64,000 nucleotides of DNA. Source: Phyllobates terribilis (taxonomy: Eukaryota). Position numbers and translations under genes: made by a program. A model generated the notes under the pieces. It was not told the origin of the DNA and searched no databases. It saw nothing but the letters and a program-made list of their open reading frames with translations. Positions within the stretch are counted from its first letter, which is position 1. Every line of letters begins with the position of its first letter. Positions 5,755 to 58,769 of the stretch are shown here, one piece after another. The stretch spans positions 147,498,001 to 147,562,000 of the forward strand of contig NW_027362762.1 of assembly GCF_046119375.1 (NCBI RefSeq). The letters are read 5' to 3'.

Positions 5755-6489
5755 TCAAAACCAGTAAATCTGTCTGAGAAGCAGCTGTGCAGAAGATGTT
5801 ATGGGCACGCTGCAAACAACTTGCCACTGCATTTTCTCCTGGTTAGATATTGTGTCATGGAATCCTCTTCTCAGGAGAATGACATCCCTGATATTTGGAA
5901 GTTGGTCCTTCTCTCTCATGTAGAGCCAGCATACTTCATGTGGGCTCAGCATGGCTTGCAAGTTCTTTCTAGCAGCATTGCTGACTGGCATGTATGGTAT
6001 AGGATTGTAGACTTGTTTAGCAGTCACCTTAATACGCGGTGGATAGGAGTAAGGCATACTGCGGACTTTAGGTGTTTGAGAGGAAGTTGGCATCTTCCAG
6101 GTAGATGGGCTCCCGGGCAACGGGGCTGTTGTCTGTACCTCACCTATTATTTTGGTGGGTTCCTGATGTTTCTTTATATCCACTGGCTCTGCGCTGATGT
6201 TTGCTGCAGGTTGTGGTGGTGGACTTTTCAGTCTCATGTATCGGCCCGTTTTGGGTGATGGACGATATGGTGGTGGACTTTTCAGTCTCAAATATCGGCC
6301 AGTTGTTTGTTTTGGTGACCCAAACAGGCATTTAATAAATAGCACGATATGATCAAGTGCTGCCATCAGATATCCAGTAAAGCCAGTTTGCCTTTGGTGG
6401 TGTTCAGGCTTCTGGCTGTATGAGGATGTCCTGGCATGTGGGAGATATCTCCGTGCTTGGATCTTTCCACCAGCTACTGGGGCAGCCAT
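5755..6489 (-). CDS. Orphan Pro/Lys/Ser-rich ORF (244 aa from MAAPVAGG), coding status unproven
   Basis: Longest non-TE, non-satellite ORF; also open in copy 3 (57315-57995). No recognisable domain. Confidence 0.3.
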   Translation of the reverse strand: MAAPVAGGKIQARRYLPHARTSSYSQKPEHHQRQTGFTGYLMAALDHIVLFIKCLFGSPKQTTGRYLRLKSPPPYRPSPKTGRYMRLKSPPPQPAANISAEPVDIKKHQEPTKIIGEVQTTAPLPGSPSTWKMPTSSQTPKVRSMPYSYPPRIKVTAKQVYNPIPYMPVSNAARKNLQAMLSPHEVCWLYMREKDQLPNIRDVILLRRGFHDTISNQEKMQWQVVCSVPITSSAQLLLRQIYWF

Positions 6490-8040
6490 TAGGCTGCCTC
6501 CCCCTCCACACACACAAAAGTGTGCGTGGATGGTAGAAAACACTCCCAAAAAAGAAATTAAGTAAAAAAAACACAAAAATATGATACAATTCGCTCTGGA
6601 TTAGTGTTCAGCTCTCCTCTCTACCTCTGCTTGCCTCGCACTGACCGTTCTTGCTGAACATTCCATGACTCGTGGACAATGGAACTGTGATGTCATAAAG
6701 CCGAACATGGCAACGGGGCTAGTATAGGAAAAATAGTTATGTTATCCATGGCAGATAATCCAATATCAGCTCTCACTGCACGGATAGGGGTTAGCTACAT
6801 TGGGATGAAATATATATAAATTTACTAGAGCACAAGTCTAAAGAAGTAGTAATAATAATAATATTAGCAAATACCTCCAATTAGAAATGTAATATAGTAT
6901 TTTTCATTCGCTAGGTCTCTTACCCCATGTGCAGGCATTGCAGGACCTTAGGTATCCATGGTTACGACAACTAGCAACTAGCTAACTAACTGTGACTTTA
7001 TCAGTGGACATCACCATGGATGCCTAAGGTCCTGCGATGCCTGCACATGTGGAAAGAGACATAGTGAATCAAAAATACTATACTACATTTCTAATTAGAG
7101 ATATTTGCTAATATTACTATTATTACACCTACTACATATTGGGATAGGATCTTGGAAATAGGAATACCCCTTTAATATTTTCAAACATGTATACTTATTA
7201 GCCTCGTATGTGAGCCAATGGGATCTACAGTGGATTGCAAAAGTATTAACCTCCTTAGTGAAGCAAACAACCAATAAGACAAAATAACGGAAAACTTCAG
7301 TGTGCATAACTATTCACCCTCCTAAAGTCAATACTTTGTAGCGCATCCTTTTGCAGAAATTACAGCTGCAAGTCGCTTTGGATAAGTCTCTATGAGCTTT
7401 CCACATCTTGCCACTGAAATTTTTTCCATTCCTCAAGGCAAAACTGCTCCAGCTCCTTCAAGTTAGATGATTTCCTCTGGTGAACAACAATCTTTAAATC
7501 TAACCACAAATTCTCAATTGGATTAAGGTCTGGGCTTTGACTAGGCCACTCTAAAACATACCTGTGTCCCCTTAAAGCACTGAAGTGTTGCAAATAGCAG
7601 TATGCTTTGGTTTATTGTCTTATTGGAAGGTGAACCTCCATCCCAGTCTCAAATCACTGACATACTGAAACAGTTTTTGCTCAAGAATATCCCTGTATTT
7701 CGAACCAGTCATCTTCACCACAACTTGGACCATTTTCCCTGTCCCTCCTGCTGAAAAACATCCCCACAGCATGATGCTGCCACCACCATGTTACACTGTT
7801 GGGATGGTGTTTTTGGGGTGATGAGCTTTGTTGGTTTGGTGCCAGACATGGCATTTACCTTGGTGGCCAAAAAGTTCAATCTTGTCTCATCTGACCACAG
7901 CACCTTCCTCCATACATTTGGGGAGTCTCCCATATGTCTTTTGGCAAACTCAAAACAAGCCTTACATTTTTTTCTGTAAGTAAAGGCTTTTTTTCTGCCC
8001 ACTCTTCCATAAAGTCCACCTCTGTGGAGTGTACGGCTTA

Positions 8041-8186
8041 GGCCAGTTGAGGAACAATCAGAGAAAAGGTATAATAGAAACAAGTGCACCAATTCTGCAT
8101 TTATCCCCCACTCCTGGTTTTGGCTCCCACTCCTGAGAAAAAATACTGACCAAATACTGATAGTGGGGTCGTGGCCTTATTGTGGT
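8041..8186. mobile_element. Small PIF/Harbinger-like MITE fragment in the Tc1 element
   Basis: TTA on both sides (GGCTTA|GGCC...GGCC|TTATTG); related sequence inverted at about 9925-10080. Confidence 0.55.
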
Positions 8187-14790: not shown

Positions 14791-16029
14791 CCACAGGCCT
14801 CCATACAATAAAAATAATTAAATCAAATACTCATCTCACGTCTCACCTGCTGCCGCTGCTCCGGACGCCAGCGTCGCCGGCCTCATCCCGCTCTGCGCTG
14901 TGACTGCTCAGGAGAGAGCGCGGTGTAAAGACGTCACTGCGCCCTCTGACCTGAGACGTCACAGTGCAGCAGCCGCGGAGGAGGCAGGAGCTCCTGCGGA
15001 GGCACGGGGAGAGGAAAGTATTGTGCCGGCTGCCGGGCCCTGAGCAAGTGGGGGGGGGGGCGGGCGCTGACACCGCTCTCCTCCGCTCATGGGTCCCATA
15101 GCGCCTGCTCAGGGCCCTGGCATTTGCCCGGGTGCTGATGCTGGCCCTGGAGTGCGGCGTGCGTCACTGCTTCTAGGGGGGGGCAGCTGCCCCCCCCGCC
15201 CCACGGTGGGTACGCCCATGGACCCATCCTCTATATACTACACCACACAGGACCCATCCTCTATATACTACACCGCATGGGACCCATCCTCTATATACTA
15301 CACCGCACGGGACCCATTCTCTATATACTACACCACACATCCTCGAAATACTACACCGCATGGGACCCATCTTCTATATACTATACCGCACGGGACCCAT
15401 CCTCTATATACTACACCACACATCCTCTATATACTACACTGCATGGGACCCATCCTCTATATACTACACCACACATCCTCTATATACTACACCGCATGGG
15501 AGAGCTGACAGATCCTCTTGTTTAAAATTCTACTCCACTTCAGGGTATTTACCTGAGGGGCCCTTTGCACACTGTGTAATCCCTTATTACCTGAGGGGCC
15601 TCTCACACTTTGTCACTCTTAATTACCTAGGGGCCCCCTTCCCCACTGTCACCCACTAATATTCTGTGGGCCCCCTTCCCATTGTGTCACCCTCCTAATG
15701 CTCTGTAGGCCCCCTTCCCACTGTGTCACTCCCCTAATGCTCTGTGGGCCCCATTCCCCACTCAGTCACCCCCCTAATGCTCTGTGGGCCCCCTTCCCCA
15801 CTGTGTCACCCCACTAATGCTCTGTGGGCCCCCTTCCCCACTGTCACCCCCTAATTGTCACGGGTGTGTTGCCACGAAGATCGTCACGAGTACACAGCCT
15901 GACTTCTCGCAGCTGACTTGTTGGTGCTTTGTGTTTTCTCGGCAGTGAAGGAGTTAATTCTCTCTCTCTCTGGGCTAGCTGAGGTCCAGCCTCGCCCAGC
16001 TGCAATCAATGCTTCGTTAGTGAGACTCC

Positions 16030-16070
16030 TTTATATTCCTGCAGGTCTGTTTGTGAGGTGTCGGTGAAAG
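16030..16070 (+). promoter_or_regulatory. LTR TATA-like box and predicted TSS / self-primer
   Basis: TTTATAT at 16030; GTCGGTGAAA at 16060-16069 is the reverse complement of TTTCACCGAC (16486-16495) just after the 5' LTR. Confidence 0.7.
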
Positions 16071-16519
16071 CTTTTCATTCAGACTTACAGAGCGGATCGT
16101 GGTGTTTGGAGTTGCTGAGATAAGTGTATTTGGAAGTGTTATTTCCCTTTCCTCGCTTTATCATTTATCTCCTTTCCCGTTGGTGTTCCCTCTGTTGTAG
16201 TTGTGTTGAAGTTGTATGCAAGGTGGTTTTGGTTTTTCCCTTGTACTGTCTCGTTCGTCTAAATACTGTGTGTGGGCATATTATTGCTGGTTCCCAATTG
16301 TTGTGATCGGGGTCCTTCTCAGGACTAGATTACTGTGGTGCAGGGATCCTCAGGAGGTAGGGGTTACGCTGGCGGCCTGGACCTCTGTACCTTTAACAGT
16401 ACCTCCAGGATGAGGGATTAGTCAGGGCCCCAGCTTAGGGTCAGCTTAGGCCCCCTACCTCCAGTATTCTGTGACAGTGTGACATTTTCACCGACCAACT
16501 TAGTTTTTCTCCAGCTACC

Positions 16520-19500
16520 ATGGATCCAGTAGCCGGTCTAGCTCGGCAGTTGCAGAGTTTGTCCATGGGGCTGGCGGACGTTAGGTCCAAGGTTTTGCAT
16601 CCTCTGGAGCAAGCCGGACCAGAACCTAAAGTAGCTCTCCCTGACAGGTTCACTGGGGGGCGGGACAAGTTTTTTGTTTTCCGGGAGGCATGCAAATTGT
16701 ACTTTCGGCTGCGGCCTCGGTCATCGGGCAGTGAAGAACAAAGGGTGGGAATTGTCATCTCGCTCCTACAAGGGGACCCACAATCTTGGGCGTTCTCTCT
16801 TCCCCCAAGCTCCCCGGTTCTCCAGTCAGTGGATAGGTTTTTCGCTGCTTTGGGACTCGTATATGATGACCCAGATCGGATCTCCCTTGCTGAGTCTAAG
16901 TTACGTAGGATTCAGCAGGGAGATCGTCCGGCGGAGGAATTCTGTTCGGAGTTCCGTAGGTGGGCCACGGACACCCAGTGGAATGACCCGGCTCTTAGGA
17001 GCCAGTTTTGTCATGGTTTATCCGACAAATTACAGGATGTGTTGGCACAGTATGACTCTCCCGCGTCACTGGAAGCCGCTATGGCCCTTGCTATTCGCGT
17101 TGACAGACGGCTTCGGGAGAGGTGCGGGATAACTCTACCCCCAGTAATGTCTCCACCTCTTACAAGGTCCCCTCATATGGTGGTTCCCCTGGTCAGTCCG
17201 GAGGAGCCTATGCAATTAGGAGGGACATCATTTCGGGGAAGGGGACCGGTGGTGCGCCATAAGACAGGAAGGTGTTTCCTCTGCGGGAAAAAGGGACATT
17301 TTATTGGGGGGTGTCCATCCCGCCCCTTGCAGAGTAAAGAGTCGTCGAAAAAACTGTTGATCCCAGGTTGTGTGGTGGACGGCAATCTGGGAGTAGGTAT
17401 TTCGTCCCTAGGTTCGTCTCAGTTTCTCGTACCGGCGGAGGTGGTGGTGGGTACGAGAACTGAGAGGATATCTGTTCTGCTGGATAGTGGGGCCGGGGCT
17501 AATCTGGTTGATGCTCGGTTTGCCCGGGTTCAAGGTATGCGATTGAGTGAGTTGGCTAAACCCATCCCCATATTCTCGATCGATGCCAGGCCTCTCGGTC
17601 AGGGAAGTTTTTTGCAAGCTGTGCATGGCGTAAAACTTCAAGTGGGGGCAATACATAAAGAACTGTTGTCTTGCTACGTGTTGGAGGGTCTTCCCACTCC
17701 TATAGTGTTGGGCCTTCCTTGGTTAGCTAAGCATAACCCGGTTATTAATTGGCAAACCAGAGAGATAAGCCAATGGAGTAAATTCTGTAATAAAAACTGC
17801 ATGAACACGGTCATCGGTGCGGTTACTCCTTGGGTCTTACCTCCATTTCTGGCAGACTTTGAGGATGTATTCTCGGAGAATGGGTGTCAGGAACTACCTC
17901 CTCATCGCGAGTATGACTGTTCTGTAAAACTGCTCCCTGAGGCCAAGTTACCTAAAGCTAGGTTGTATAACCTTTCTGGTCCTGAGAGGCAGGCCATGAA
18001 GGATTATATTTCTGAAAGTCTGGCTAAGGGGCATATTAGACCTTCATCTTCACCGGTGGCCGCGGGGTTCTTCTTTGTTAAGAAGAAAGATGGAGGCCTA
18101 CGCCCTTGCCTGGATTTCCGTGAACTTAATCGGATTACGGTCCGAGATCCGTATCCGCTCCCACTTATTCCCGATCTCTTTAATCAGATCGTGGGCGCCA
18201 AATGGTTCTCTAAGTTGGATCTCAGGGGGGCGTACAATCTGATTAGGATGAAGGAGGGGGATGAGTGGAAGACGGCTTTTAACACTCCGGAGGGGCATTA
18301 TGAGAACCTTGTCATGCCATTCGGTCTGACTAATGCCCCGGCGGTGTTTCAACACTTTGTTAATGATATTTTTCGCCACCTGGTGGGACAGTTTGTTGTC
18401 ATATATCTGGATGATATCTTAATTTACTCGCCGGATCTGGTGTCTCATCAGGAGCACGTTAGACAGGTGTTACAGATCTTGCGGGATAATAAACTGTATG
18501 CCAAGTGGGAAAAGTGTGTGTTCGCCGTACAGGAACTCCAGTTTTTAGGCTTCCTGGTTTCAGCGTCCGGTTTTCGTATGGACCCTGGGAAAGTGCGGGC
18601 AGTTCTTGAGTGGGATCGGCCGGAGAATCTTAAGGCACTACAACGTTTCCTGGGGTTTGCTAACTATTACCGGAAGTTCATTCGTAATTTCTCGTCCATG
18701 GTTAAGCCTCTCACAGACATGACTAAAAAGGGGACGGATTTTTCTAGGTGGTCTGACAAGGCTTGTCAAGCATTCTCCTCCTTGAAAAAATGTTTTGCCT
18801 CGGCACCCATACTCATTCAACCTGATGCGTCTCAGCCATTCTTTGTAGAGGTAGACGCTTCCGAGGTAGGGGTGGGAGCAGTATTGTCACAGGGTTCGTC
18901 CCCTGGTAAGTGGCATCCGTGCGCCTTTTTCTCTAAAAAATTGTCGTCCGCTGAGAGGAATTACGATGTCGGCAATAGGGAACTCCTGGCCATTAAGTTA
19001 GCTTTTGAGGAGTGGCGCCATTTTTTGGAGGGGGCAGTTCATCCGGTCACCGTCATCACCGATCACAAGAACCTGCTATATCTGGAGTCCGCTAAACGTC
19101 TGAATCCCAGACAAGCTAGGTGGTCATTGTTTTTTACCAGGTTTAATTTCGTCGTTACATATCGTCCTGGGTCTAAAAATGTAAAGGCGGATGCCTTATC
19201 TCGTAGTTTCCCTGGGGCCGGGAATACGGACGACCCGATTCCTATTCTTCAGGAGGGGGTGGTGGTTTCGGCAGTATGCTCTGAGCTGGAGGAGGAGATA
19301 TTGGAGGCTCAGGGGGACGCCCCTGTTGGACCTCCGGGGAGACTGTTCGTTCCAGATCAGTTGCGACAAAAGGTGATCGAGGCACACCATAACTCAGTTT
19401 TTGCAGGACACCCGGGGAGTAAAGCAACTGTGGATCTCCTCTCGCGTCGGTTTTGGTGGCCTAACTTACATAAAGAGGTGGTAACTTTTGTCGCGTCCTG

Positions 19501-20731
19501 TGGGGTTTGTGCGCGCTCTAAGACCTCACATACCCGTCCGTCTGGGGCCCTCTTACCTTTGAAGATCCCGGAGCGTCCTTGGACTCATCTGTCTATGGAC
19601 TTTATTACGGACCTCCCTCCGTCTTCGGGTAAAACGGTCATACTCGTTGTAGTGGACAGGTTCAGCAAGATGGCACATTTTATCGCTCTTCCGGCTCTCC
19701 CTAATGCTAAAACTCTTGCGCAGGTGTTCATTGGGGAGATTGTGAGGCTTCACGGGGTACCCTCCGAGGTGGTGTCTGATCGGGGGTCTCAGTTTGTGTC
19801 CAAGTTCTGGAAGGCGTTTTGTGCACGGCGGGGGATGCATTTGTCATTTTCGTCGGCTTTTCATCCTCAGACCAATGGTCAGACGGAACGTATGAACCAG
19901 AGCTTGGAGACATATCTTCGGTGTTTTGTGTCAGAGAACCAGGAGGACTGGGCTTCTTTCCTACCTCTGGCAGAGTTTGCTCTCAATAATAGGCGGAGCG
20001 AGTCCACTGGTAAGTCCCCGTTTTTTGGGGCATATGGTTTTCACCCCCAGTTTTGTACTTTCAGTAGGGGGGGCTCTTCGGGGGTTCCGGAGGAGGAACG
20101 ATTTTCCTCATCTCTCGCTTCAGTATGGAGAGGGGTGCTGAAGAATCTGAATACTATGGGGAACCGATACAAACGTATGGCTGATAGGAGGAGAGTGTCT
20201 GGTCCGGACCTAAGTGTGAACGATCAGGTATGGTTGTCTACCAGGAATATTAAACTTAAGGTTCCCTCCTGGAAACTGGGTCCCAGGTTCATCGGGCCGT
20301 ACAGAATCAGTTCTGTTATTAATCCGGTGGCATTCCGTCTTGACCTCCCCCCTACGTTTAAAATTCACAACGTGTTTCACAGATCATTGCTTAAGAGGTA
20401 TGTGGTGCCGGTGGTACCGTCACCTTCACCTCCCCCTCCTGTGGTTGTCAATGGTAACTTGGAGTTCCAGGTATCGAGGGTCATTGATTCACGCTTTAAT
20501 CGCCGGTCCCTTCAGTACTTGGTTCATTGGAAGGGGTATGGTCCTGAGGAGAGGATGTGGGTTCCTGCGTCGGATATTAACGCAGACCGATTAGTTCGGG
20601 CCTTCCACACGACTCACCCGGATAAACCTGGCCCTGAGGGTCCGGAGGCCCCTCGTAGAAGGGGGGGTACTGTCACGGGTGTGTTGCCACGAAGATCGTC
20701 ACGAGTACACAGCCTGACTTCTCGCAGCTGA
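16520..20731 (+). CDS. gag-pol: Gag-Pol polyprotein (1403 aa): Gag, CCHC knuckle, protease, RT, RNase H, integrase, chromodomain
   Basis: CFLCGKKGHFIGGC; LLDSGA; FSKLDLRGAY, YLDDIL; VDASEVGVGAVL, TDHKNL; HHCC plus MDFITDL/SDRGSQF/GQTER; YLVHWKGYGPEERMW. Confidence 0.97.
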   Translation: MDPVAGLARQLQSLSMGLADVRSKVLHPLEQAGPEPKVALPDRFTGGRDKFFVFREACKLYFRLRPRSSGSEEQRVGIVISLLQGDPQSWAFSLPPSSPVLQSVDRFFAALGLVYDDPDRISLAESKLRRIQQGDRPAEEFCSEFRRWATDTQWNDPALRSQFCHGLSDKLQDVLAQYDSPASLEAAMALAIRVDRRLRERCGITLPPVMSPPLTRSPHMVVPLVSPEEPMQLGGTSFRGRGPVVRHKTGRCFLCGKKGHFIGGCPSRPLQSKESSKKLLIPGCVVDGNLGVGISSLGSSQFLVPAEVVVGTRTERISVLLDSGAGANLVDARFARVQGMRLSELAKPIPIFSIDARPLGQGSFLQAVHGVKLQVGAIHKELLSCYVLEGLPTPIVLGLPWLAKHNPVINWQTREISQWSKFCNKNCMNTVIGAVTPWVLPPFLADFEDVFSENGCQELPPHREYDCSVKLLPEAKLPKARLYNLSGPERQAMKDYISESLAKGHIRPSSSPVAAGFFFVKKKDGGLRPCLDFRELNRITVRDPYPLPLIPDLFNQIVGAKWFSKLDLRGAYNLIRMKEGDEWKTAFNTPEGHYENLVMPFGLTNAPAVFQHFVNDIFRHLVGQFVVIYLDDILIYSPDLVSHQEHVRQVLQILRDNKLYAKWEKCVFAVQELQFLGFLVSASGFRMDPGKVRAVLEWDRPENLKALQRFLGFANYYRKFIRNFSSMVKPLTDMTKKGTDFSRWSDKACQAFSSLKKCFASAPILIQPDASQPFFVEVDASEVGVGAVLSQGSSPGKWHPCAFFSKKLSSAERNYDVGNRELLAIKLAFEEWRHFLEGAVHPVTVITDHKNLLYLESAKRLNPRQARWSLFFTRFNFVVTYRPGSKNVKADALSRSFPGAGNTDDPIPILQEGVVVSAVCSELEEEILEAQGDAPVGPPGRLFVPDQLRQKVIEAHHNSVFAGHPGSKATVDLLSRRFWWPNLHKEVVTFVASCGVCARSKTSHTRPSGALLPLKIPERPWTHLSMDFITDLPPSSGKTVILVVVDRFSKMAHFIALPALPNAKTLAQVFIGEIVRLHGVPSEVVSDRGSQFVSKFWKAFCARRGMHLSFSSAFHPQTNGQTERMNQSLETYLRCFVSENQEDWASFLPLAEFALNNRRSESTGKSPFFGAYGFHPQFCTFSRGGSSGVPEEERFSSSLASVWRGVLKNLNTMGNRYKRMADRRRVSGPDLSVNDQVWLSTRNIKLKVPSWKLGPRFIGPYRISSVINPVAFRLDLPPTFKIHNVFHRSLLKRYVVPVVPSPSPPPPVVVNGNLEFQVSRVIDSRFNRRSLQYLVHWKGYGPEERMWVPASDINADRLVRAFHTTHPDKPGPEGPEAPRRRGGTVTGVLPRRSSRVHSLTSRS

Positions 20732-23496
20732 CTTGTTGGTGCTTTGTGTTTTCTCGGCAGTGAAGGAGTTAATTCTCTCTCTCTCTGGGCTAGCTGAGGT
20801 CCAGCCTCGCCCAGCTGCAATCAATGCTTCGTTAGTGAGACTCCTTTATATTCCTGCAGGTCTGTTTGTGAGGTGTCGGTGAAAGCTTTTCATTCAGACT
20901 TACAGAGCGGATCGTGGTGTTTGGAGTTGCTGAGATAAGTGTATTTGGAAGTGTTATTTCCCTTTCCTCGCTTTATCATTTATCTCCTTTCCCGTTGGTG
21001 TTCCCTCTGTTGTAGTTGTGTTGAAGTTGTATGCAAGGTGGTTTTGGTTTTTCCCTTGTACTGTCTCGTTCGTCTAAATACTGTGTGTGGGCATATTATT
21101 GCTGGTTCCCAATTGTTGTGATCGGGGTCCTTCTCAGGACTAGATTACTGTGGTGCAGGGATCCTCAGGAGGTAGGGGTTACGCTGGCGGCCTGGACCTC
21201 TGTACCTTTAACAGTACCTCCAGGATGAGGGATTAGTCAGGGCCCCAGCTTAGGGTCAGCTTAGGCCCCCTACCTCCAGTATTCTGTGACAGTGTGACAC
21301 TAATACTCTGAGGGCCCCCTTCCCCACTGTGTCAGCCCCTACTACTCTGTGGGCCCCCTTACCCACTCTCACCCACTAAAACTCTGTGGGCCCCGTTTCC
21401 CACTGTGTCACCCCTTAATACTCTGTGGGCCCCCTTTCCCACTGTGTCACCCCCTAATACACTGTAGGCCCCCTTCACCACTGTCACCCCGTAATGCTCT
21501 GTGGATCCCTTTTCCCACTGTGACACCCTCTAATACTCTGAGGGCCCCCTTCCCCACTGTGTCACCCCCTACTACTCTGAGGGCCCCCTTCCCCACTGTC
21601 ACCCCCTACTACTCTGAGGGCCCCCTTCCCCACTGTCATGTTACCCCCTAATACACTGAGGGCCCCCTTCCCCACTGTGTCACCCCCTAATACTCTGAGG
21701 GCCCCCTTCCGAACTGTGTCACCCCCTAATACTCTGAGGGCCCCCATCTCCACTGTGTCACCCACTAATACTCTGAGGGCCCCCTTCCCCACTATGTCAC
21801 CTCCTAATACTCTGAGGGCCCCCTTCCCCACTGTGTCACCCCTTACTACTCTGAGGGCCCCCTTCCCCACTGTCACCCACTAATATTCTGTGGGCCCCTT
21901 TCCCACTGTGTCACCCCCTAATACACTGAGGGCCCCCTTCCCCACTGTGTCACCCCTTAATTCTCTGAGGGCCCCCTTCCCCATTGTCACCCACTAATTC
22001 TCTGTGGGCCCCTTTCCCACTGTGTTACCCCCTAATGCTCTGTGGGCCCCCTTCCCCACTGTGTCATCCCCTAATACTCTGAGGACCCCCTTCTCCAGTC
22101 ACCCACTAACATTCTGTGGGCCCCCATTCCCATTTTGTCACCCCCTAAAATTCTGTGGGCCTCCTTTCCCACTGTGTCACCCCCTACTACTCTGATGGCC
22201 CCCTTCCCCACTGTCAACGACTAATATTCTGTGGGCCTCCTTTCCCACTGTGTCACCCCCTAATACTTTGTGGGCCCTCTTTCCCACTGTGTCACCCCCT
22301 AATACTCTGTGGGCCCCCTCCCCACTGTGTCACCCTCTACTACTCTGAGGGCCCCCTCCCCACTGTGTCACCCTCTACTACTCTGAGGGCCCCCTTCCCC
22401 ACTGTGTCACCCCCTACTACTCTGAGGGCCCCCTTCCCCACTGTCGTGTCACCCCCTAATACACTGAGGGCCCCCTTCCCCACTGTGTCACCCCCTAATA
22501 CTCTGTGGGCCCCTTTCCCACTATGTCACCCTCTAATGCTCTGTGGTCCCCCTTCCCCACTGTGTCACCCCCTAATACTCTGAGGGCCCCCTTCCCCAAT
22601 GTGTCACCCCCTAATACTCTGAGGGCCCCCATCCCCACTGTGTCACCCCCTAATACTCTGAGGGCCCCCTTCCCCACTATGTCACCCCCTAATACTCTGA
22701 GGGCCCCCTTCCCCACTGTGTCACCCCTTACTACTCTGGGGGCCCCCTTCCCCACTGTCACCCACTAATATTTTGTGGGCCCCTTTCCAACTGTGTCACC
22801 CACTAATACACTGAGGGCCCCCTTCCCCACTGTGTCACCCCCTAATTCTCTGAGGGCCCCCTTCCCCATTGTCACCCACTAATTCTCTGTGGGCCCCTTT
22901 CCCACTGTGTTACCCCCTAATGCTCTGTGGGCCCCCTTCCCCACTGTGTCATTCCCTAATACTCTGAGGACCCCCTTCCCCAATCACCCACTAATATTCT
23001 GTGGGCCCCCTTTCCCACTTTGTCACCCCCTAAAACTCTGTGGGCCCCCTTTCCCACTGTCAACGACTAATATTCTTTGGGCCTCCTTTCCCACTGTGTC
23101 ACCCCCTAATACTCTGTGGGCCCTCTTTCCCACTGTGTCACCCCCTACTACTCTGTGGGCCCTCTTTCCCACTGTGTCACCCCCTAATGCTCTGAGGGAC
23201 CCTTTCCCACTGTGTCATGCCCTAATACTCTGTGGGCCCCCTTCCCCACTGTGTCATCCCCTAATACTCTGAGGACCCCCTTCCCCAGTCACCCACTAAT
23301 ACTCTGTGGGCCCCCTTCCCCACTGTCACCCCCTAATACTCTGAGGACCCCTTTCCCCACTGTGTCACCCCCTAGTGGCCTGGGGGCCTCCACCCCTAAC
23401 TGCATGAGACAATTAAATGACAGTGTTGAGGCTGGAGAACTAGTTATAAGAAATGTACTCACACTGACTCACTCCAGGTCTCCAGCAGGAAGCCCT

Positions 23497-38720: not shown

Positions 38721-41700
38721 AATGGCGGCCTGCTGTGCACTGGTGCCACAGAACCCAGAAGGGTGCATGGATGTACTTCTCCACAAGAGGCCCTCACACA
38801 TTCACACACCTCCACCCTACCACCTCAGACCAGCAGAGGGAGCCCGTTAGGGATATATAAAGGGAGGGTGGAGCCAGGCAGCTCAGTCAGAAGTTAGTTA
38901 GTCTCTCAGACACAGAGAGGGACAGAGCTCAGAGTTGAGCAGAGAGCGTGCTGACGCTCAGAGAGCAGCAAGCTGGCTGCTGTGCTTAGTCGAGCCAAGG
39001 CCTACAGCACGTGTGAAGGCCTAGTGAGGGCCCTGAGTGTGGCCGAAGGCGAGAGGAGAAGGAAGAAGTAGCGAGGGGGTAGAGGAGCATACCAGGCTCA
39101 CCCTGATATATATACCGGACACCGGGTCCGCGCCTACGGGGACCCTTTATACCAGTAGGGACCACCGGAACCCCTGGAGGACTACAGGTCCCAGGTTCAC
39201 CAAATGCTGATTGCAGTACTAGGGCTAGGAGTCACGGAGGCCCCAGCGACCAGGGAGAGTGATCTCCAAGAAAAGTCCCTACCACCAAGTCAGCAGGTGC
39301 AAAGAGAGACAGTAACCAAGCTAGGCCTAGCTCCAGGCAGGTCAGAAGCTTAGCGAGTAAAGCCACGGATCAGGAGGCCCTATACCCGCTCACTGGGGAG
39401 AGTCCAAAAGTGCGCCCTTCGTCCGGAGTACCCTGAACCGTGCCTGCACCATCACCAATAAAGGTACTGAAGCTTAGCCCCGTGTGAGTGTGCGTCTTTT
39501 TTCCGGGACCGTCCTGTCGTCTCTCCCCCGCATCCACCATCTATCCCTACACTGCCCTAGGGCTAGCTCTACCTGTGGAGAGCCATACTATCCCTGCTGC
39601 CGTAACACCAGCTCCAGAGGACTGCTCCGCAGCGGCGGCACCCTTTTGCCGCTTTCCACAGGTGGCGTCACGAACTTTCCAAATCCCCAATAGATAATTT
39701 CCCCTTTATACTGACCGCCCTGGGTCACGGACCGGGCCAGCCACCGAGATATACCCCACCGGCATATGCAGAGGCCCGGCTGCCGAGTACCCCACGGCCC
39801 AGGGGGCGCGTTAGCCTTGGCGTCACGAACAGAATTCTGTGCCCGTTGCCACTGGGTACTGTGCGCCTTAAAAGACTGTAATACTCACTGTGGTGAAGGT
39901 TTCCCGCCATTCCCGAGATTTCTCGCCATTGTCCGCCATCTTCCTGTCACCGTGCGGGAAGAAGAGGGGCGTAACCGCGGGAATCGGAGAGGCGTAAACG
40001 CTGGAAGCGCGCAAAGCCCAGGACACGCCCCGCCCCTGACGTCGAATCAGAAAGTGTCAGGTCCTGGAAGGAGCCCAGAGGACGCTCTGACGTCAGACAC
40101 GAGCGACGCAAGGTCCTGGAAGAAGACCGTCGCCCGCGGAGCTGCGGCCTACCTGATAAGCAGTGAAGAAGGAAGGCTCCAGTTCACTAGGGGGGCGCAA
40201 CCATGGCCGACGACCAGCGAGCCACCGGAGCACCGGCTAACGCTCCTGATGCCCAACCCGCGCCCGGCGCTGCACAGGCCGGAGCGGTTTCTCCACCAGC
40301 AGGGGTCATGACCCCATTGATACCCATGGCCCTGCAGTATATCCCTGGAGTGAAGTGGCTTCCCTAGTAAAATGGCAAACCAGACACCCTGTCTGGATTC
40401 AAGAGAAAAATATGTGGTGTACTAGACATGTATTCTATGACCGGTAAACAGAGAGCTGCTGTTGTGCTGGGACAATTGACTGGTGCTGCAGAGTGGGAAG
40501 TTGAAACCTGGCCAGCCGCAGACCAGGAATCAGTATCCATCATCTTTAAGAGACTGCAAACTGTGTTTGAAAACTGCACTGAGACGGATCTTCGGATGAG
40601 GTTCTACCACTGTGTCCAGAAACCTGAGGACAGTATCCGGGACTACGCCTGGCGCGTACAGGAAGCCCTGCGGGCCCTGAAACAGGTTAGTCCAGCCAGC
40701 ATGCAAAATGAAAATAAAATGCTGACGGATCAAGGCCCTGCCTTTGAAACCGAGCTGTTCAAAGAGTTTTGCCATTTGTACGGGTGTAAGAAGATCCGGA
40801 CTACACCGTACCACCCCCAAACCTATGGGTTATGTGAAAAGATGAATAACATAGTCATCGACCTGTTGAAGACCTTACCTCTCGAAGAAAGAAACCAATG
40901 GCCGGACAAACTACCTGACCTGGTAGATTTGTACAATCACATACCTGTGAGTTCCACCAATTGTACTCCAGCGTACCTCATGAGAGCAAGACCTGGAAAG
41001 TTGCCCATGGACCTGGAGCTTGGAGTGGTCGAGCCAGAAGCAGATATGTCCACTGAAGACTGGGATGCGACTTGACAGGAACAGTACAAGAGAGTACAAG
41101 CCTGTGTCGAAGACAGTCTAAGTAGGGTGAGAGATAAGCAGGAAGCACAGAACAACAAGAGTGCACCAGCTGAACCCTTGACACCTGGAGAAGTTGTGCT
41201 GAAACGAAAGAGAAGAAGCCACAAGCTTGACGACCAGTGGGAAAGGGAACCTTACACTGTGTTGAATTCCAGATTCGACGATAGGAAAATCTGCCTAATT
41301 AGCAAAGACGGAGAAAGAACAACTGCAACAGTATCAAGAGACCATCTGAAGTTGTGCCCAAGTCCGCTAAAGCCCCAGGAGGAAGTGCCTCTCACCATAC
41401 CGGAGGAGCCTAAAGAAGAAGTACTCCATACTGACTTAGGAGATTTCCCGGCAGATTGGCCTCAACTGGATGGAGCGGTAATAATACCTGTGCTACACTT
41501 CTACCAACAGCCAGAAGACTCTCCACTGCAAGTAAGACCTGTAAGTGCCCCGGAAGAGCCTGCTCAGGAAGAATCCCCGGAAGAAGGATCACCGGTAGAA
41601 GCAGAGCCAGTAGGCCCAGTAACCAGTGTATTTGCCTGTCCCGTAGAGAGGTTAAGGCAGTCTTGCAGTCCATCAACACATAGAGCGGAAAATAGCGCAA

Positions 41701-42760
41701 GCATCCACACTACATGCATTCCAGTACTACGTAGGTGTAACGGGTCTGGGAGGCGGAACCTCTGAGCTACTATACAAGGGGGCGGTCCTTGTAAGGGAGC
41801 GGGTGGCGACCAGGGAAGACGGGCAGGCAGTCACAGCAGGTGACCGGGACAGTCTCAGGGTGAACGGGCAGGAGGTCACGGCAAGTGACCGGGGCAGTCT
41901 CTGGATGAACAGGCTGGAGGTCACGGCAAGTGACCGGGGCAGTCTCTGGATGAACGGGCTGGAGGTCACGGCAAGTGACCGGGGCAGTCTCTGGATGAAC
42001 GGGCTGGAGGTCACGGCAAGTGACCGGGGCAGTCTCTGGGTAAAGGGTAGGTACGACCTGTGATGGCTGAACCTCCAGGTAGGCTAGCAGGCAGATGGAA
42101 GATGTGTGCTCCCAGGTGAGCAAGCGAGAGTCTCTGGATGAACGGGTGGTCACAGCATGTGACGGCGGATCCTCCAGGTAGGCAAACAGGCAGGTAGCGG
42201 AGGAGCGCTCCCAGGTGAGCGGGCAGGAGTCTCTGGAATAGCAGGTGGTCACAGCACGTGACGGCGGAGCCTCCAGGTAGGCAAGCAGGCAGGTAGCGGA
42301 GGAGCGCTCCCAGGTGAGCGGGCAAGAGTCTCTGGAATAGCAGATGGTCACAGCACGTGACGGCGGAGCCTCCAGGTAGGCTAGCAGGCAGGTAGCAGAT
42401 GTGCGCTCCCAGGTGAGCGGCCAAGCTGGTCCATAGACAGACTGACAGGAGTAGGAAGGCAGACCGTCGGACCTCAGGCTAGCAAGCAGGTAGCAGGAAT
42501 ATCAGGCAGGAAACAGACAGCAAACTGGCAGGACTCTGGCAGGAATCAGGCAGGTAACAGACAGCAAACTGGCAGGACTCTGGCAGGAATCAGGCAGGTA
42601 ACTGACAGGTAACTGGCAACGGGACCTGAGGGCTGAAGCAGAGTAGTGAACAGTGCAACAACATTGCTCGGGCACCTCCATTTTGGAGGAGGTGCCTTAT
42701 ATATGGTGAAGTCCTCCGGCCATTGGCCGGGAACTCCTTAGGACGGCGCGCGCGGCCCCT

Positions 42761-45700
42761 TTAAGAGGGAGGGAGCAAGCGCGCGCGTGCTCTAAGCACA
42801 GTGGCCGGGAAGGAGCGCGCACTGCCAGCAGAGCGGGAGGAGGACGCCGGGCTCGGAGCAGAGAGGTGAGGGGAACAGCGTCCCTGCCTAGCAGAGGGCA
42901 GGAACGCCGACGCTACAGTACCCCCCCCTTTAGGCCCCCCCTTTTTTAGGCCAGACAGAAATTTAGCTAGGATGAGAGGGGCATGGATGTTCTCCCGGGG
43001 CTCCCATGTTCTCTCCTCAGGACCAAACCCCTTCCAATCTACTAGAAAAAAGGTCTTCCCTCTTACCCTTTTGGTGGCCAGAATGTTCTCTACCTCAAAT
43101 TCGTTTTCAGCGGAAACCGGAGCAGGAGGCGTGCCTGTAGACTTGGAAAAAGAGTTAAGTACCACGGGTTTGAGGAGAGATACATGGAAGGAGTTAGGGA
43201 TCCGCAAATTGGCCGGGAGTTTCAATTTATAGGCCACCGGGTTGATCTGACTGATGACCTCCAGAGGACCGATGAACCGAGGCCCTAACTTATAGGAAGG
43301 AATCTTGAGCCGGACATACTTGGACGAGAGCCAGACCTTATCCCCAGGACGGAATTGAGGAGGATCCAGACGTTTTTTGTCAGCATGTCTTTTCATACGT
43401 TCGAATGACAGAAGGAGTGCGGACCGGGTACTCTCCCATATGGAGGAAAATTTGTTAACAAGAGATTCCGCAGCCGGATTGTCCACCGAGGTGGAGACGG
43501 GAAACGGGATCCGAGGATGCTGACCGAAGACTACAAAAAACGGGGATTTGGAGGAAGATTCGCTCTCGTGATTGTTGTACGAGAATTCAGCCCATGGCAG
43601 GAGATCCACCCAGTCAGAATGGTGGGCATTAATGAAGTGCCGGAGGTAACTGGTCAGGATCTGATTGATCCGCTCCACTTGACCATTAGACTGTGGGTGG
43701 TAAGCGGAGGAGAAGTCCAGGGTGACGTCTAGCAATTTACAAGTGGCTCTCCAGAAACGAGAAGTGAACTGTACCCCACGATCCGACACGATGTGACGGG
43801 GCAGGCCATGAAGACGGAAGATGTGGCGGATAAAGTCTTTAGCCAGCTCGGGTGCAGACGGGAGGCCTGGCAGGGGAATGAAGTGAGCCATCTTGGAAAA
43901 GCGGTCAGCGACCACCCAAATGACCGTACAATCGGCAGAGACGGGAAGATCAGTTATGAAGTCCATCGCTATATGCTGCCAGGGGGCAGCAGGTACTGGC
44001 AGAGGAAGGAGGCGACCGGCTGGCAGGTGTCTCGGAACTTTGTTGCGGGCGCAGGACACACAGGCAGAAACAAAGTCTATTACATCCTTGTGCAGGTTAG
44101 ACCACCAGTAGTGCCGGGTAATAAGCTGGAGGGTCTTTTTCTGACCGGCGTGGCCAGCTAGTTTAGACGAATGACCCCAGTGTAGGATCTTCTCCCGATC
44201 AGGTACCGATACGAACGTCTTACCGGGAGGGAGACGATTTAGACTCACGGGAGCCACCTGCATTACTCTGGCGGGATCGATGATATGTTTAGGTTCTTCC
44301 TCGAGGTCAGATACCAGAAAGGATCGGGACAAGGTGTCCGCTTTGATGTTCTTGTCAGCCGGGCGAAAATGTAGAACAAAATCAAAGCGAGCAAAAAACA
44401 AGGACCACCGGGCTTGGCGCGGGTTAAGTCTCTGGGCATGCTGGAGATAAGCCAAGTTCTTGTGGTCAGTGTAAATTATTACCGGATGAAGAGCCCCCTC
44501 GAGCAGGTAACGCCACTCCTCCAATGCCAGCTTGATGGCCAATAACTCTCGGTCTCCTATGGAATAATTGCGCTCAGAAGAGGAGAAGAGTTTGGAGAAG
44601 AAGCCGCAAGTTACCATCCTCCCGGAAGATGATTTTTGAGTAAGTACAGCTCCGGCTCCAGAGGAGGAGGCGTCAACCTCCAGGAAGAACTGCTTGTTGC
44701 CATCCGGACGATGCAGCACCGGGGCGGAAGAGAAGGCCTGTTTTAAGGAAAGAAAGGCCTCCTCTGCTTCGGACGGCCACTCCTTGGGATTAGTACCCTT
44801 ACGGGTGAGCGCGGAAATTGGGGCAGTCCGGGAAGAGAAGTGTGGTATGAAGAGGCGGTAGTAGTTGGCGAAGCCCAGGAACCGCTGAATGGCCTTCAAC
44901 CCCTCCGGTCGGGGCCATTTCTCGATGGCAGACAGTTTCTCTGGATCCATTCGTAGGCCGGTCTGAGAAATAATGTAGCCCAAAAACGGAAGCGAGGTCT
45001 GCTCAAAGAGGCACTTCTCATATTTAGCGAAGAGGTGATTCTGCCTGAGCCTGAGCAGGACCTGACGAACGTCCCTCCGGTGAGTCTGGAGATCCGGAGA
45101 GAAGACCAAGATGTTGTCCAGGTACACCACAACGCAGGAGTAGAGAAGGTCCCGGAAGATGTCATTGACCAACTCTTGAAAGACGGCAGGAGCGTTACAG
45201 AGACCAAAGGGCATTACCAGATATTCATAGTGGCCGTCCCGGGTGTTGAATGCAGTCTTCCATTCATCCCCTTGACGGATACGGACCAGGTTGTACGCCC
45301 CACGGAGGTCCAGTTTGGTGAAGACTCTAGCCCCCCTCAGGCGATCAAATAATTCTGGAATGAGCGGAAGGGGGTACTTATTCTTCACCGTGATCTGGTT
45401 AAGGCCTCTATAGTCTATACAGGGACGGAGAGAGCCGTCCTTCTTTTTTACGAAGAAGAAGCCTGCTCCCGCCGGGGAGGTAGATTTCCGGATGAATCCC
45501 CTGGCCAAATTCTCCTCAATATATTCGGACATCGACCGGGTCTCAGCAGCGGACAATGGGTAAATACGCCCACGGGGAGGAGTAGTACCGGGTAACAGGT
45601 CGATAGGACAGTCGTATGGTCTATGAGGGGGTAATGTCTCTGCCTCCTTTTTATTAAAGACATCAGCAAATGACCAATAGGGAATCGGAAGTCCAGGTAG

Positions 45701-46186
45701 ATTAGTTGGGGTAGGAGAAGGACGGACGGGATGAACAGGAACCAAACAAGTCTTATGACAGTCCTGTCCCCAGCGAAGGACTTCTCCGGTCTGCCAGTCA
45801 AGCACGGGTGCATGTCTCTGGAGCCAAGGTAGACCTAGTAAGAGGGCGTGAGAGAGTCCAGGCAGAACATGAAAAGAGATGCTCTCAGAATGCAGCATTC
45901 CCACCTGCAGAGTTATAGATTCGGTGATGAGTTGGATGGGACGTGGTAAGAGGCCCCCATCCACAGCAGCGACAGATAATGGTACAGCCAGAGGTTTGGT
46001 GGGAATGCGGTATTTTTCTACCAGGGACTGTGAAATAAGATTCCCGGCTGCTCCAGAGTCAAGTTGGGCTAGTTCGAAATAACGATTCTCCCCGCAGATA
46101 ATAGAGACTGACAGTAGCAGAGATGGAGAGGATTTATTCTTGTCTAGGTCGACCTCTCTGAGCGAACCTAGACACAGGCGTTTCCC
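42761..46186 (-). CDS. pol: Pol (protease, RT with YLDN, RNase H, integrase, chromodomain) reached by -1 frameshift
   Basis: -1 frame from GGGAAAC reads GKRLCLG...AQLDSGAAGNL into the 1067-aa ORF; FTKLDLRGAY; VDASSSGAGAVL; MDFITDL/SDRGVQF/GQVER; FLVDWKGFGPEERTWEP. Confidence 0.93.
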   Translation of the reverse strand, partial: GKRLCLGSLREVDLDKNKSSPSLLLSVSIICGENRYFELAQLDSGAAGNLISQSLVEKYRIPTKPLAVPLSVAAVDGGLLPRPIQLITESITLQVGMLHSESISFHVLPGLSHALLLGLPWLQRHAPVLDWQTGEVLRWGQDCHKTCLVPVHPVRPSPTPTNLPGLPIPYWSFADVFNKKEAETLPPHRPYDCPIDLLPGTTPPRGRIYPLSAAETRSMSEYIEENLARGFIRKSTSPAGAGFFFVKKKDGSLRPCIDYRGLNQITVKNKYPLPLIPELFDRLRGARVFTKLDLRGAYNLVRIRQGDEWKTAFNTRDGHYEYLVMPFGLCNAPAVFQELVNDIFRDLLYSCVVVYLDNILVFSPDLQTHRRDVRQVLLRLRQNHLFAKYEKCLFEQTSLPFLGYIISQTGLRMDPEKLSAIEKWPRPEGLKAIQRFLGFANYYRLFIPHFSSRTAPISALTRKGTNPKEWPSEAEEAFLSLKQAFSSAPVLHRPDGNKQFFLEVDASSSGAGAVLTQKSSSGRMVTCGFFSKLFSSSERNYSIGDRELLAIKLALEEWRYLLEGALHPVIIYTDHKNLAYLQHAQRLNPRQARWSLFFARFDFVLHFRPADKNIKADTLSRSFLVSDLEEEPKHIIDPARVMQVAPVSLNRLPPGKTFVSVPDREKILHWGHSSKLAGHAGQKKTLQLITRHYWWSNLHKDVIDFVSACVSCARNKVPRHLPAGRLLPLPVPAAPWQHIAMDFITDLPVSADCTVIWVVADRFSKMAHFIPLPGLPSAPELAKDFIRHIFRLHGLPRHIVSDRGVQFTSRFWRATCKLLDVTLDFSSAYHPQSNGQVERINQILTSYLRHFINAHHSDWVDLLPWAEFSYNNHESESSSKSPFFVVFGQHPRIPFPVSTSVDNPAAESLVNKFSSIWESTRSALLLSFERMKRHADKKRLDPPQFRPGDKVWLSSKYVRLKIPSYKLGPRFIGPLEVISQINPVAYKLKLPANLRIPNSFHVSLLKPVVLNSFSKSTGTPPAPVSAENEFEVENILATKRVRGKTFFLVDWKGFGPEERTWEPRENIHAPLILAKFLSGLKKGGPKGGGTVASAFLPSARQGRCSPHLSAPSPASSSRSAGSARSFPATVLRARARLLPPS

Positions 46187-47118
46187 GACCTCTCCGGGCA
46201 GGTACGGATCCGGTGCTCCTTACTGCCACAGTAGAAGCAGCTCCCTTCGGCACGGCGTAAGTCCTGACGGGTTTTGACCATCTTGGTCTGGTCGACCTGC
46301 ATAGGCTCAGGAGAGTGTACCTGGGGAGAAACGGAGGGAGTGACGGGTTTCTGAAAAGTAGGAGCTAGACGTGGAAACCTCCTCTCACGGTTGACCTCTT
46401 TGGCACGCTCCTGGAACCGTAGGTCAATCCGGGTGGCAAGAGTTATTAAGTCATCGAGAGTGGTAGGGATGTCCCGACCGGCGAGTTCATCTTTAATACG
46501 GCCGGACAGACCCTCCCAGAAGACAGATACCAGAGCGTCGTTATCCCAAGCCAGCTCCGAGGCAAGGGTACGGAACCGTATGGCATATTGGCCCACGGTG
46601 AGATTTCCCTGGTGGAGGCGTAGCAGAGATGATGCGGATGAGGTCTTCCGTCCGGGTTCGTCGAAGACTTTCCGGAAAGCCGTGAGAAAGGCAGGCAAGT
46701 CGGACACCAGGGGGTCTCCTCTCTCCCATAGAGGATTTAGCCAGGCCAGGGCCTCCCCGGTGAGATGGGACATGATGAAGGCAATTTTGGCCCGGTCGGA
46801 GTTAAACTGGTGGGACAGGAGTTCAAAGTGCAGGGTGCACTGATTTATGAAGCCCCGAGCCTGAGCGGAGTCGCCTCCGAAGCGAGGAGGTGCAGAAAGC
46901 CGGGGTCCGGGGTAGGATACCATGGTATTGGTGGGCAGCGGAGCTGCCGGGTTGCGAGTCATGGCACTGGCGGTGGTTGCTGGTGGGGCAGTCAGAGTGT
47001 CCAGGCGAGAATTGACATTCCGCAGGTGACCCAGGATGGACTCCTGTTGGGACCTCTGACGGGACAGTTCATGACAGAGGTCCGAGAGCGAGGGAGCTTG
47101 GGTGCCACCGGGTTCCAT
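46168..47118 (-). CDS. gag: Gag (316 aa) with CCHC knuckle
   Basis: PRFGGDSAQARGFINQC, EPMQVD, CFYCGSKEHRIRTC. Confidence 0.93.
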   Translation of the reverse strand: MEPGGTQAPSLSDLCHELSRQRSQQESILGHLRNVNSRLDTLTAPPATTASAMTRNPAAPLPTNTMVSYPGPRLSAPPRFGGDSAQARGFINQCTLHFELLSHQFNSDRAKIAFIMSHLTGEALAWLNPLWERGDPLVSDLPAFLTAFRKVFDEPGRKTSSASSLLRLHQGNLTVGQYAIRFRTLASELAWDNDALVSVFWEGLSGRIKDELAGRDIPTTLDDLITLATRIDLRFQERAKEVNRERRFPRLAPTFQKPVTPSVSPQVHSPEPMQVDQTKMVKTRQDLRRAEGSCFYCGSKEHRIRTCPERSGNACV

Positions 47119-48468
47119 GGCCCGAACAAACTGTAACGGGTCTGGGAGGCGGAACCTCTGAGCTACTATACAAGGGGGCGGTCCTTGTAAGGGAGCGGGT
47201 GGCGACCAGGGAAGACGGGCAGGCAGTCACAGCAGGTGACCGGGACAGTCTCAGGGTGAACGGGCAGGAGGTCACGGCAAGTGACCGGGGCAGTCTCTGG
47301 ATGAACAGGCTGGAGGTCACGGCAAGTGACCGGGGCAGTCTCTGGATGAACGGGCTGGAGGTCACGGCAAGTGACCGGGGCAGTCTCTGGATGAACGGGC
47401 TGGAGGTCACGGCAAGTGACCGGGGCAGTCTCTGGGTAAAGGGTAGGTATGACCTGTGATGGCTGAACCTCCAGGTAGGCTAGCAGGCAGATGGAAGATG
47501 TGTGCTCCCAGGTGAGCAAGCGAGAGTCTCTGGATGAACGGGTGGTCACAGCATGTGACGGCGGATCCTCCAGGTAGGCAAACAGGCAGGTAGCGGAGGA
47601 GCGCTCCCAGGTGAGCGGGCAGGAGTCTCTGGAATAGCAGGTGGTCACAGCACGTGACGGCGGAGCCTCCAGGTAGGCAAGCAGGCAGGTAGCGGAGGAG
47701 CGCTCCCAGGTGAGCGGGCAAGAGTCTCTGGAATAGCAGATGGTCACAGCACGTGACGGCGGAGCCTCCAGGTAGGCTAGCAGGCAGGTAGCAGATGTGC
47801 GCTCCCAGGTGAGCGGCCAAGCTAGTCCATAGACAGACTGACAGGAGTAGGAAGGCAGACCGTCGGACCTCAGGCTAGCAAGCAGGTAGCAGGAATATCA
47901 GGCAGGAAACAGACAGCAAACTGGCAGGACTCTGGCAGGAATCAGGCAGGTAACAGACAGCAAACTGGCAGGACTCTGGCAGGAATCAGGCAGGTAACTG
48001 ACAGGTAACTGGCAACGGGACCTGAGGGCTGAAGCAGAGTAGTGAACAGTGCAACAACATTGCTCGGGCACCTCCATTTTGGAGGGGGTGCCTTATATAT
48101 GGTGAAGTCCTCCGGCCATTGGCCGGGGACTCCTTAGGACGGCGCGCGCGGCCCCTTTAAGAGGGAGGGAGCGCGCGCGCGCCCTAAGCACAGTGGCCGG
48201 GAAGGAGCGCGCGCTGCCAGCAGAGCGGGAGGAGGACGCCGGGCTCGGAGCAGAGAGGTGAGGGGAACAGCGTCCCTGCCTAGCAGAGGGCAGGGACGCC
48301 GACGCTACAGTAGGTCATCGCGTAGCACAAAAGGCCAGACCCCTGTCAGGTATAAGGAGTAAGTTAAAAATACCTGCAGTATAAATAGTTACCCAGTAGG
48401 GTATTGCATAATGTTTATTGTATAAACTGAAATATATGTGTTTATTTAGTTACCCGTAAGGGTATATA

Positions 48469-57995: not shown

Positions 57996-58769
57996 TAGGC
58001 TGCCTCCCCCTCCACACACACAAAAGTGGGCGTGGATGGTAGAAAACACTCCCAAAAAAGAAATTAAGTAAAAAAAAACACAAAAATATGATAAAATTCG
58101 CTCTGGATTAGTGTTCAGCTCTCCTCTCTACCTCTGCTTGCCTCGCACTGACCGTTCTTGCTGAACATTCCATGACTCGTGGACAACGGAACTGTGATGT
58201 CATAAAGCCGAACATGGCAACGGGGCTAGTATAGTAAAAATAGTTATGTTATCCATGGCAGATAATCCAATATCAGCTCTCACTGCACGGATAGGGGTTA
58301 GCTACATTGGGATGAAATATATATAAATTTACTAGAGCACAAGTCTAAAGAAGTATTCCCATCTCCAAGATCCTATCCCAAACTGTAGGTGTAATAATAA
58401 TAATATTAGCAAATACCTCCAATTAGAAATGTAATATAGTATTTTTCATTCGCTAGGTCTCTTACCCCATGTGCAGGCATTGCAGGACCTTAGGTATCCA
58501 TGGTTACGACAACTAGCAACTAGCTAACTAACTGTGACTTTATCAGTGGACATCACCATGGATGCCTAAGGTCCTGCGATGCCTGCACAAGTGGAAAGAG
58601 ACATAGTGAATCAAAAATACTATACTACATTTCTAATTAGAGATATTTGCTAATATTACTATTATTACACCTACTACATATTGGGATAGGATCTTGGAAA
58701 TAGGAATGCCCCTTTAATATTTTCAAACATGTATACTTATTAGCCTCGTATGTGAGCCAATGGGATCTA

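What the first reader, a model, noticed from the sequence alone, without database searches (positions are those of the whole stretch)
16030..16495. Tf1-type self-priming signature, element 1
No TGG-initiated tRNA PBS follows the 5' LTR. Instead TTTCACCGAC (16486-16495) is the perfect reverse complement of GTCGGTGAAA (16060-16069), extendable to 11 bp by a G:U pair, and this lies 30 nt after TTTATAT (16030), where the TSS is expected. This is the geometry of self-primed reverse transcription established for S. pombe Tf1 and proposed for vertebrate Tf1/sushi elements. An intact vertebrate copy would make it directly testable.
Basis: partly seen in the sequence, partly recalled or inferred. Interest (0 to 1): 0.7.

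Follow-up and report, generated by a model that had tools for sequence, protein, structure and literature searches.

The report
Self-priming Tf1/sushi retrotransposon, frog-like genome
A young jumping gene has no tRNA docking site and instead carries ten bases that pair exactly with its own terminal repeat, as do nine related families with different letters, so it likely starts copying itself with a piece of its own RNA, a trick already described for this group of elements.

Summary
Observation confirmed. 15856-21299 is a complete, young Ty3/gypsy chromovirus: identical 629-bp LTRs, a 5-bp target duplication and one 1,403-aa ORF. Its PBS lacks TGG, and 16486-16495 pairs perfectly with 16060-16069 (2 of 2,000 shuffles match as well). 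Ten PBS types from this genome each pair for 10 bp with their own LTR (10 of 10 picked representatives; 0 of 90 cross-pairs). The site lies 30-32 nt after a TATA-like octamer, and 7 of 10 pair columns change on both sides. Tf1-type self-priming is likely, but start site, cleavage and priming are untested. The 11th G:U pair is not conserved, so the primer is more likely 10 nt with a 1-2-nt spacer. TTTATAT occurs in only 4 of 24 family copies examined. The Tf1 flanking 'pretzel' arms were not significant. A tRNA-fragment primer could be checked against only one isotype. Self-priming is already stated in print for the vertebrate Tf1/sushi group. This scan noted it before in this genome (e1-8631615, e1-9302274) and in others. 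Verdict: new member of a known kind.

The parts
15851..15855 (+). 5' target-site duplication CTAAT (inside a 39-40-bp tandem array)
15856..16484 (+). 5' LTR, 629 bp, TG..CA
16030..16037 (+). TATA-like octamer, 30 nt before the primer G; degenerate in most family copies
16060..16069 (+). predicted self-primer (predicted first 10 nt of the RNA, T|G start)
   Evidence: start site inferred, not mapped
16485..16485 (+). 1-nt spacer between LTR end and PBS core (possible G:U with 16070, not conserved)
16486..16495 (+). primer-binding site core, no TGG
16520..20731 (+). single uninterrupted gag-pol ORF, 1,403 aa: Gag, CCHC knuckle, protease (LLDSG), RT (YLDD), RNase H, integrase (HHCC, core), SH3, chromodomain
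20656..20667 (+). polypurine tract, followed by TAC and the 3' LTR
20671..21299 (+). 3' LTR, identical to the 5' LTR (second primer-sequence copy at 20875-20884)
21300..21304 (+). 3' target-site duplication CTAAT
41736..48309 (-). second chromovirus (element 2), different family; predicted primer 48069-48060, PBS 47131-47120, 10-bp duplex with one copy-specific G:U

Best explanation
This is a young, structurally complete vertebrate chromovirus whose PBS pairs exactly with ten bases of its own LTR, and it likely primes reverse transcription with the first ~10 nt of its own RNA, as Tf1 does. Shown: element anatomy, the 10-bp complementarity, its position 30 nt after a TATA-like site, and compensatory changes across families. 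Inferred: Pol II starts at G16060; the RNA 5' end folds onto the PBS about 425 nt downstream; the element's RNase H cuts after about nt 10; the freed 3'-OH primes minus-strand DNA across the 1-nt spacer and U5/R. The cleavage step is taken from Tf1 and was not tested here.
For: Identical LTRs, TSD and uninterrupted ORF with RT, RNase H, integrase and chromodomain. 10-bp match: 2 of 2,000 shuffles. Ten PBS types: 10 of 10 own-LTR matches of at least 10 bp, 0 of 90 cross matches; TATA-like octamer 30-32 nt upstream in 10 of 10; primer begins with G, preceded by T in 9 of 10; 7 of 10 pair columns show two or more Watson-Crick types. Sets not chosen for pairing: 26 of 30 loci (first by place) and 19 of 20 element-2-family loci have a perfect match of 10 bp or more, against 2 of 600 and 4 of 400 shuffled PBSs; 14 of 17 chromovirus elements with clean ends have it against 0 of 5 plant-like elements. 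The RT-RNase H tree puts it with frog and fish elements, on the fungal side of the split from plant and algal rows. Self-priming is stated for the group.
Against: No start-site, cleavage or cDNA data. The representatives were picked as intact copies (only 10 of 20 stretches keep 10 bp or more at the expected site; L079 was dropped because its 5' LTR is truncated), and the ten types fall into two related groups, so they are not ten independent events. Copies selected for T at PBS position 8 have a perfect match in only 1 of 30, 17 of 30 when G:U is allowed; this is probably post-insertion decay. The TATA of this family is weak and variable. Flanking 'pretzel' duplexes were not significant (z -1.4 and -1.1 for this element; 1 of 20 tests below -2). 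No canonical poly(A) hexamer among 12 tested was found in the LTR, so the R/U5 border is unknown. The tRNA check covered only tRNA-Lys(UUU).
Confidence: 0.9

Rival explanations
1. A host tRNA fragment or another small host RNA primes at this PBS, and the LTR match is incidental or only structural.
For: Half-tRNA priming exists in some copia lineages. Only one tRNA isotype could be tested.
Against: No TGG. tRNA-Lys pairs worse than the self-primer (-9.4 against -16.0 kcal/mol). Ten different PBSs would each need a host RNA while also matching their own LTR at the same distance from the TATA-like site.
Confidence: 0.04
2. The RNA starts upstream of 16060 and the primer is cut out internally (two cuts), or is supplied in trans by another transcript or solo LTR of the family.
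For: The start site is unmapped; this family's TATA is degenerate; the duplex forms equally well with starts at 16050-16059; thousands of family copies could supply primers.
Against: The pairing stops sharply at the 5' G in 9 of 10 types, at a fixed 30-32 nt from a TATA-like octamer, and the base before that G is T, as expected of a start site.
Confidence: 0.05
3. Chance complementarity.
For: A 10-mer match somewhere in a 629-nt LTR has a probability of about 0.001-0.002, and many elements are screened.
Against: Recurrence with different letters in ten PBS types and 0 of 90 cross matches.
Confidence: 0.01

Closest known systems
Tf1/Tf2 of Schizosaccharomyces pombe (and Tj1, Tosmo1-3, Tcry1)
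   Same: Chromodomain-bearing Ty3/gypsy element with a single ORF like Tf1/Tf2; PBS directly after the 5' LTR complementary to the predicted RNA 5' end; no tRNA PBS.
   Different: Tf1 uses 11 nt and is cut between nt 11 and 12, and its PBS follows the LTR directly (inferred from the passage). Here the conserved duplex is 10 bp with a 1-nt spacer (2 nt in the second group). Gag has a CCHC knuckle, which the fission-yeast elements lack. The three-duplex 'pretzel' was not demonstrated.
Vertebrate Tf1/sushi group (sushi-ichi of Takifugu; Butler et al. 2001, known here only through citing papers)
   Same: Self-priming is stated as a common feature of the group, vertebrates included. Nearest named proteins are frog and fish gypsy polyproteins (RT-RNase H 61-67% identity; list). 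LTR ends TGTCACG..GTGACA roughly fit the Sushi motif TGTYANR..CNTNACA.
   Different: Single ORF, whereas non-yeast Tf1/sushi elements mostly use a -1 frameshift. No named sushi-ichi sequence was available for a direct tree. Whether Butler et al. already give a 10-nt primer could not be checked.
Plant Tcn1 chromoviruses and TAR copia elements (REXdb)
   Same: Self-priming predicted by the same criterion: at least 10 bp complementary to the 5' LTR, starting 0-5 bp after it.
   Different: Different hosts; TAR is a different superfamily.

Membership tests
Ty3/gypsy chromovirus | PR-RT-RNase H-integrase order with C-terminal chromodomain | tested here: met
Ty3/gypsy chromovirus | TG..CA LTRs, 5-bp TSD, PPT | tested here: met
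Tf1/sushi group | No tRNA-type (TGG) PBS | tested here: met
Tf1/sushi group | PBS complementary (10 bp or more, starting 0-5 nt after the LTR) to a site in the 5' LTR | tested here: met
   criterion
Tf1/sushi group | Phylogenetic placement with vertebrate/fungal rather than plant chromoviruses | tested here: inconclusive
   vertebrate and fungal rows split from plant and algal rows at 100/99, midpoint-drawn; no named Tf1 or sushi-ichi reference in the tree, and the plant rows are not classified to clade
Tf1/sushi group | Self-primer is the true 5' end of the RNA | not testable with these tools
   only assembled contigs were available
Tf1/sushi group | Three-duplex 'pretzel' structure around the PBS | tested here: inconclusive
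   candidate arms exist but do not beat shuffles
Tf1/sushi group | RNase H cleavage releases the primer | not testable with these tools
   RNase H domain present; activity untested
Tf1 proper | 11-nt primer abutting the LTR end | tested here: not met
   pair 11 is Watson-Crick in 0 of 10 types, G:U in 5, mismatched in 5
tRNA-primed gypsy elements | PBS complementary to a tRNA 3' end (TGG) | tested here: not met
   tRNA fragments checked for tRNA-Lys only

The most novel reading that the evidence does not exclude
Vertebrate Tf1/sushi elements use a 10-nt, not 11-nt, self-primer, set off from the LTR by a lineage-specific 1- or 2-nt spacer, with fixed G at primer positions 1, 5 and 7. The primer is copied back into the PBS, which keeps the core perfectly Watson-Crick and lets the pair drift together, while the spacer is never rewritten. 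Support: core G:U is rare in young families (99 of 100 listed element-2 copies have the Watson-Crick base); PBS position 1 reads C in only 1 listed copy of a family of roughly 2,400; 2 of 28 copies with a rare PBS variant carry the exactly compensating primer base, and a third makes a U:G pair.
Probability: 0.5. Interest if true: 0.45.

Novelty: new member of a known kind. Interest (0 to 1): 0.3.

Why it matters
In the papers read here, experimental work on self-priming is on fission-yeast Tf1; for vertebrates it is described as implicated or predicted. This family is large (about 2,400 PBS matches by extrapolation; element 2's family has 20,302) and young, so host RNA and cDNA could be examined directly for the start site and the primer. 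The covariation table gives sharp predictions: start at G16060 and a 10-nt primer. It also implies that choice of start site alone could switch copying on or off, as reported for Tf2. It would confirm and refine a known mechanism rather than reveal a new one.

Tried and rejected
This is no evidence either way. tRNA search: 63 matches, the 13 loci scanned all tRNA-Lys(UUU), so not a real tRNA-set test. Pretzel arms: not significant. Copy-level compensation in this element's own family: 0 of 4 PBS variants had a changed primer. Depletion of PBS mutations against the leader: 4 variants at 4 PBS sites against about 13 single-base variants at 3 leader sites, but mostly at one G, so inconclusive. 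G:U at PBS position 8 in older copies first looked like a functional wobble; 2,969 matches have C against 160 with T, so it is read as mostly decay. SH3 search was not used further. Of 100 Gag-hit stretches fetched, only 20 had a clean LTR pair with TSD. One search was a frame slip, corrected; one search crashed and was rerun. Primary papers were not held: Lin and Levin 1997 RNA, Atwood-Moore 2006, Esnault and Levin 2015, Lin and Levin 1998, Butler 2001, Levin 1996.

Full report
1. Observation. All three motifs are at the stated coordinates and 16486-16495 is the exact reverse complement of 16060-16069. The LTRs are 15856-16484 and 20671-21299, identical over 629 bp, flanked by CTAAT. The 20 nt after the LTR contain no TGG. 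Two of 2,000 dinucleotide shuffles of the LTR give a match of 10 bp or more. In folds of the predicted leader RNA, pairs 1-9 have probability 0.9-1.0, pair 10 0.62, and the proposed G:U pair 11 0.17.

2. What it is. One uninterrupted ORF (16520-20731, 1,403 aa) carries Gag, RT, RNase H, integrase, SH3 and chromodomain matches, plus CCHC, LLDSG, YLDD and HHCC motifs. The best PDB match is Ty3 Gag-Pol. Named relatives are mostly frog and fish gypsy polyproteins, so the host is probably a frog (inference). In an RT-RNase H tree of 23 rows it groups with frog and fish elements; vertebrate and fungal rows split from plant and algal rows at 100/99, but no named Tf1 or sushi-ichi reference was available. 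The family is young and large: all 40 scored matches to LTR plus leader are about 100% identical, and 30 of 30 fetched keep primer and PBS. A pattern for the LTR end plus PBS has 2,969 matches and 0 in the control; 82 of the first 100 are this element's type.

3. Covariation. Relatives were found by Gag profile and by PBS patterns, neither of which uses the LTR site. One intact copy was picked for each of ten PBS types. Each has a perfect match of at least 10 bp in its own LTR, and none of 90 cross comparisons does. A TATA-like octamer (recalled weight matrix) starts 30-32 nt before the match in all ten. The match begins with G, preceded by T in nine. Seven of ten pair columns show two or more Watson-Crick types; positions 1, 5 and 7 are always G:C. 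The picks are selected and fall into two related groups. Sets not chosen for pairing give 26 of 30 and 19 of 20 perfect matches, against 2 of 600 and 4 of 400 for shuffled PBSs; 14 of 17 clean chromovirus elements against 0 of 5 plant-like elements. Older copies are often decayed: 10 of 20, and 1 of 30 perfect among copies selected for T at PBS position 8 (17 of 30 with G:U allowed).

4. Pair 11 is Watson-Crick in 0 of 10 types, G:U in 5 and mismatched in 5. The conserved core is 10 bp, spaced 1 nt from the LTR in this element's group and 2 nt in the other. PBS position 1 was found changed in only 4 copies (A, A, G, C), so an 11th G is not being copied into it. TTTATAT occurs in 4 of 24 family copies examined. 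The flanking duplexes of the Tf1 'pretzel' do not beat shuffles.

5. Mechanism. Most likely (0.9): transcription starts at G16060, the 5' end pairs with the PBS, the element's RNase H cuts after about nt 10, and the fragment primes minus-strand synthesis. Anatomy, pairing and covariation are shown; start site, cleavage and priming are inferred from Tf1. Whether the primer is copied back into the PBS is suggested but not shown: about half of Tf1 cDNA carries a copied PBS; here 2 of 28 element-2 copies with a rare PBS variant have the exactly compensating primer base (P about 0.004-0.03, depending on the assumed background rate) and 26 do not; 0 of 4 do in this element's family. I began this test before reading e1-8631615, which reports the same idea; one search was run after it. 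Rivals: host RNA fragment (0.04; only tRNA-Lys tested), internal or trans primer (0.05), chance (0.01). Public runs gave contigs only and say nothing on the start site.

6. Comparison with what is known. Self-priming is called a common feature of Tf1/sushi elements (bioRxiv 10.1101/2022.12.06.519325), described for yeast and vertebrates (PMC6317226) and implicated from fungi to vertebrates (PMC4600332). Tf1 uses 11 nt (PMC7175516). Start-site choice controls Tf2 (PMC5341516). For these and PMC3601003, PMC11042837, PMC2864245 and PMC5006619 I saw term-matched passages only, no supplements. Butler 2001 and the Levin primary papers were not held and are known to me through citations and recall. 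Six searches listed no title or abstract opening that reports an experimental test in a vertebrate; the library lacks most subscription journals, so this is not proof of absence. The scan has noted the same signature in this genome and in several others.

7. Verdict. A real feature and a well-supported new member of a known kind, with one refinement (10-nt primer plus spacer) that may or may not already be in print. Interest 0.3.

Noticed in passing
G000 small contigs, e.g. L091, L093, L095, L098, L102, L111, L116, L129: Gypsy elements with ~1.4-1.6-kb LTRs and a TGGCGCCGTTG-type PBS, which from recall is the tRNA-Asp site of plant Athila-like elements. They sit on 30-100-kb contigs and suggest plant DNA in the assembly. 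Five with clean ends served as a negative control.
   Followed up: partly
window 41736-48309 (-): Second chromovirus with 1,178-bp, 99% identical LTRs, TSD CCTAC, separate gag and pol frames; its family has 20,302 PBS matches. This copy has a private C>T in the PBS.
   Followed up: partly
window 15631-15855 and 21300-23374: Element 1 is inserted into a 39-40-bp tandem array.
   Followed up: no
L001, L003, L004, L015, L022: Five family copies on different contigs share the same 12-nt left flank: either duplication after insertion or insertion into another repeat.
   Followed up: no
G000:C1:179061673-179071310: Three PBS matches at 4,810-bp spacing, about the length of an element minus one LTR; possibly tandem copies sharing LTRs, as described for integrase-independent Tf1 insertion.
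   Followed up: no
ten PBS types: Primer positions 1, 5 and 7 are G:C in all ten types while the other seven columns vary.
   Followed up: no
window 15856-16484: None of 12 poly(A) hexamers tested occurs in this LTR.
   Followed up: no
window 49555-50575 (-) and 7718-8176 (-): Tc1/mariner transposase remnants.
   Followed up: no
window 5755-6600 (-) and 57315-58127 (-): Two near-identical ~270-280-codon open frames without a Pfam match; a repeated element of unknown type.
   Followed up: no
window 40371-41075 (+): Weak PNMA and integrase-core matches below cut-off; probably a decayed gypsy fragment.
   Followed up: no
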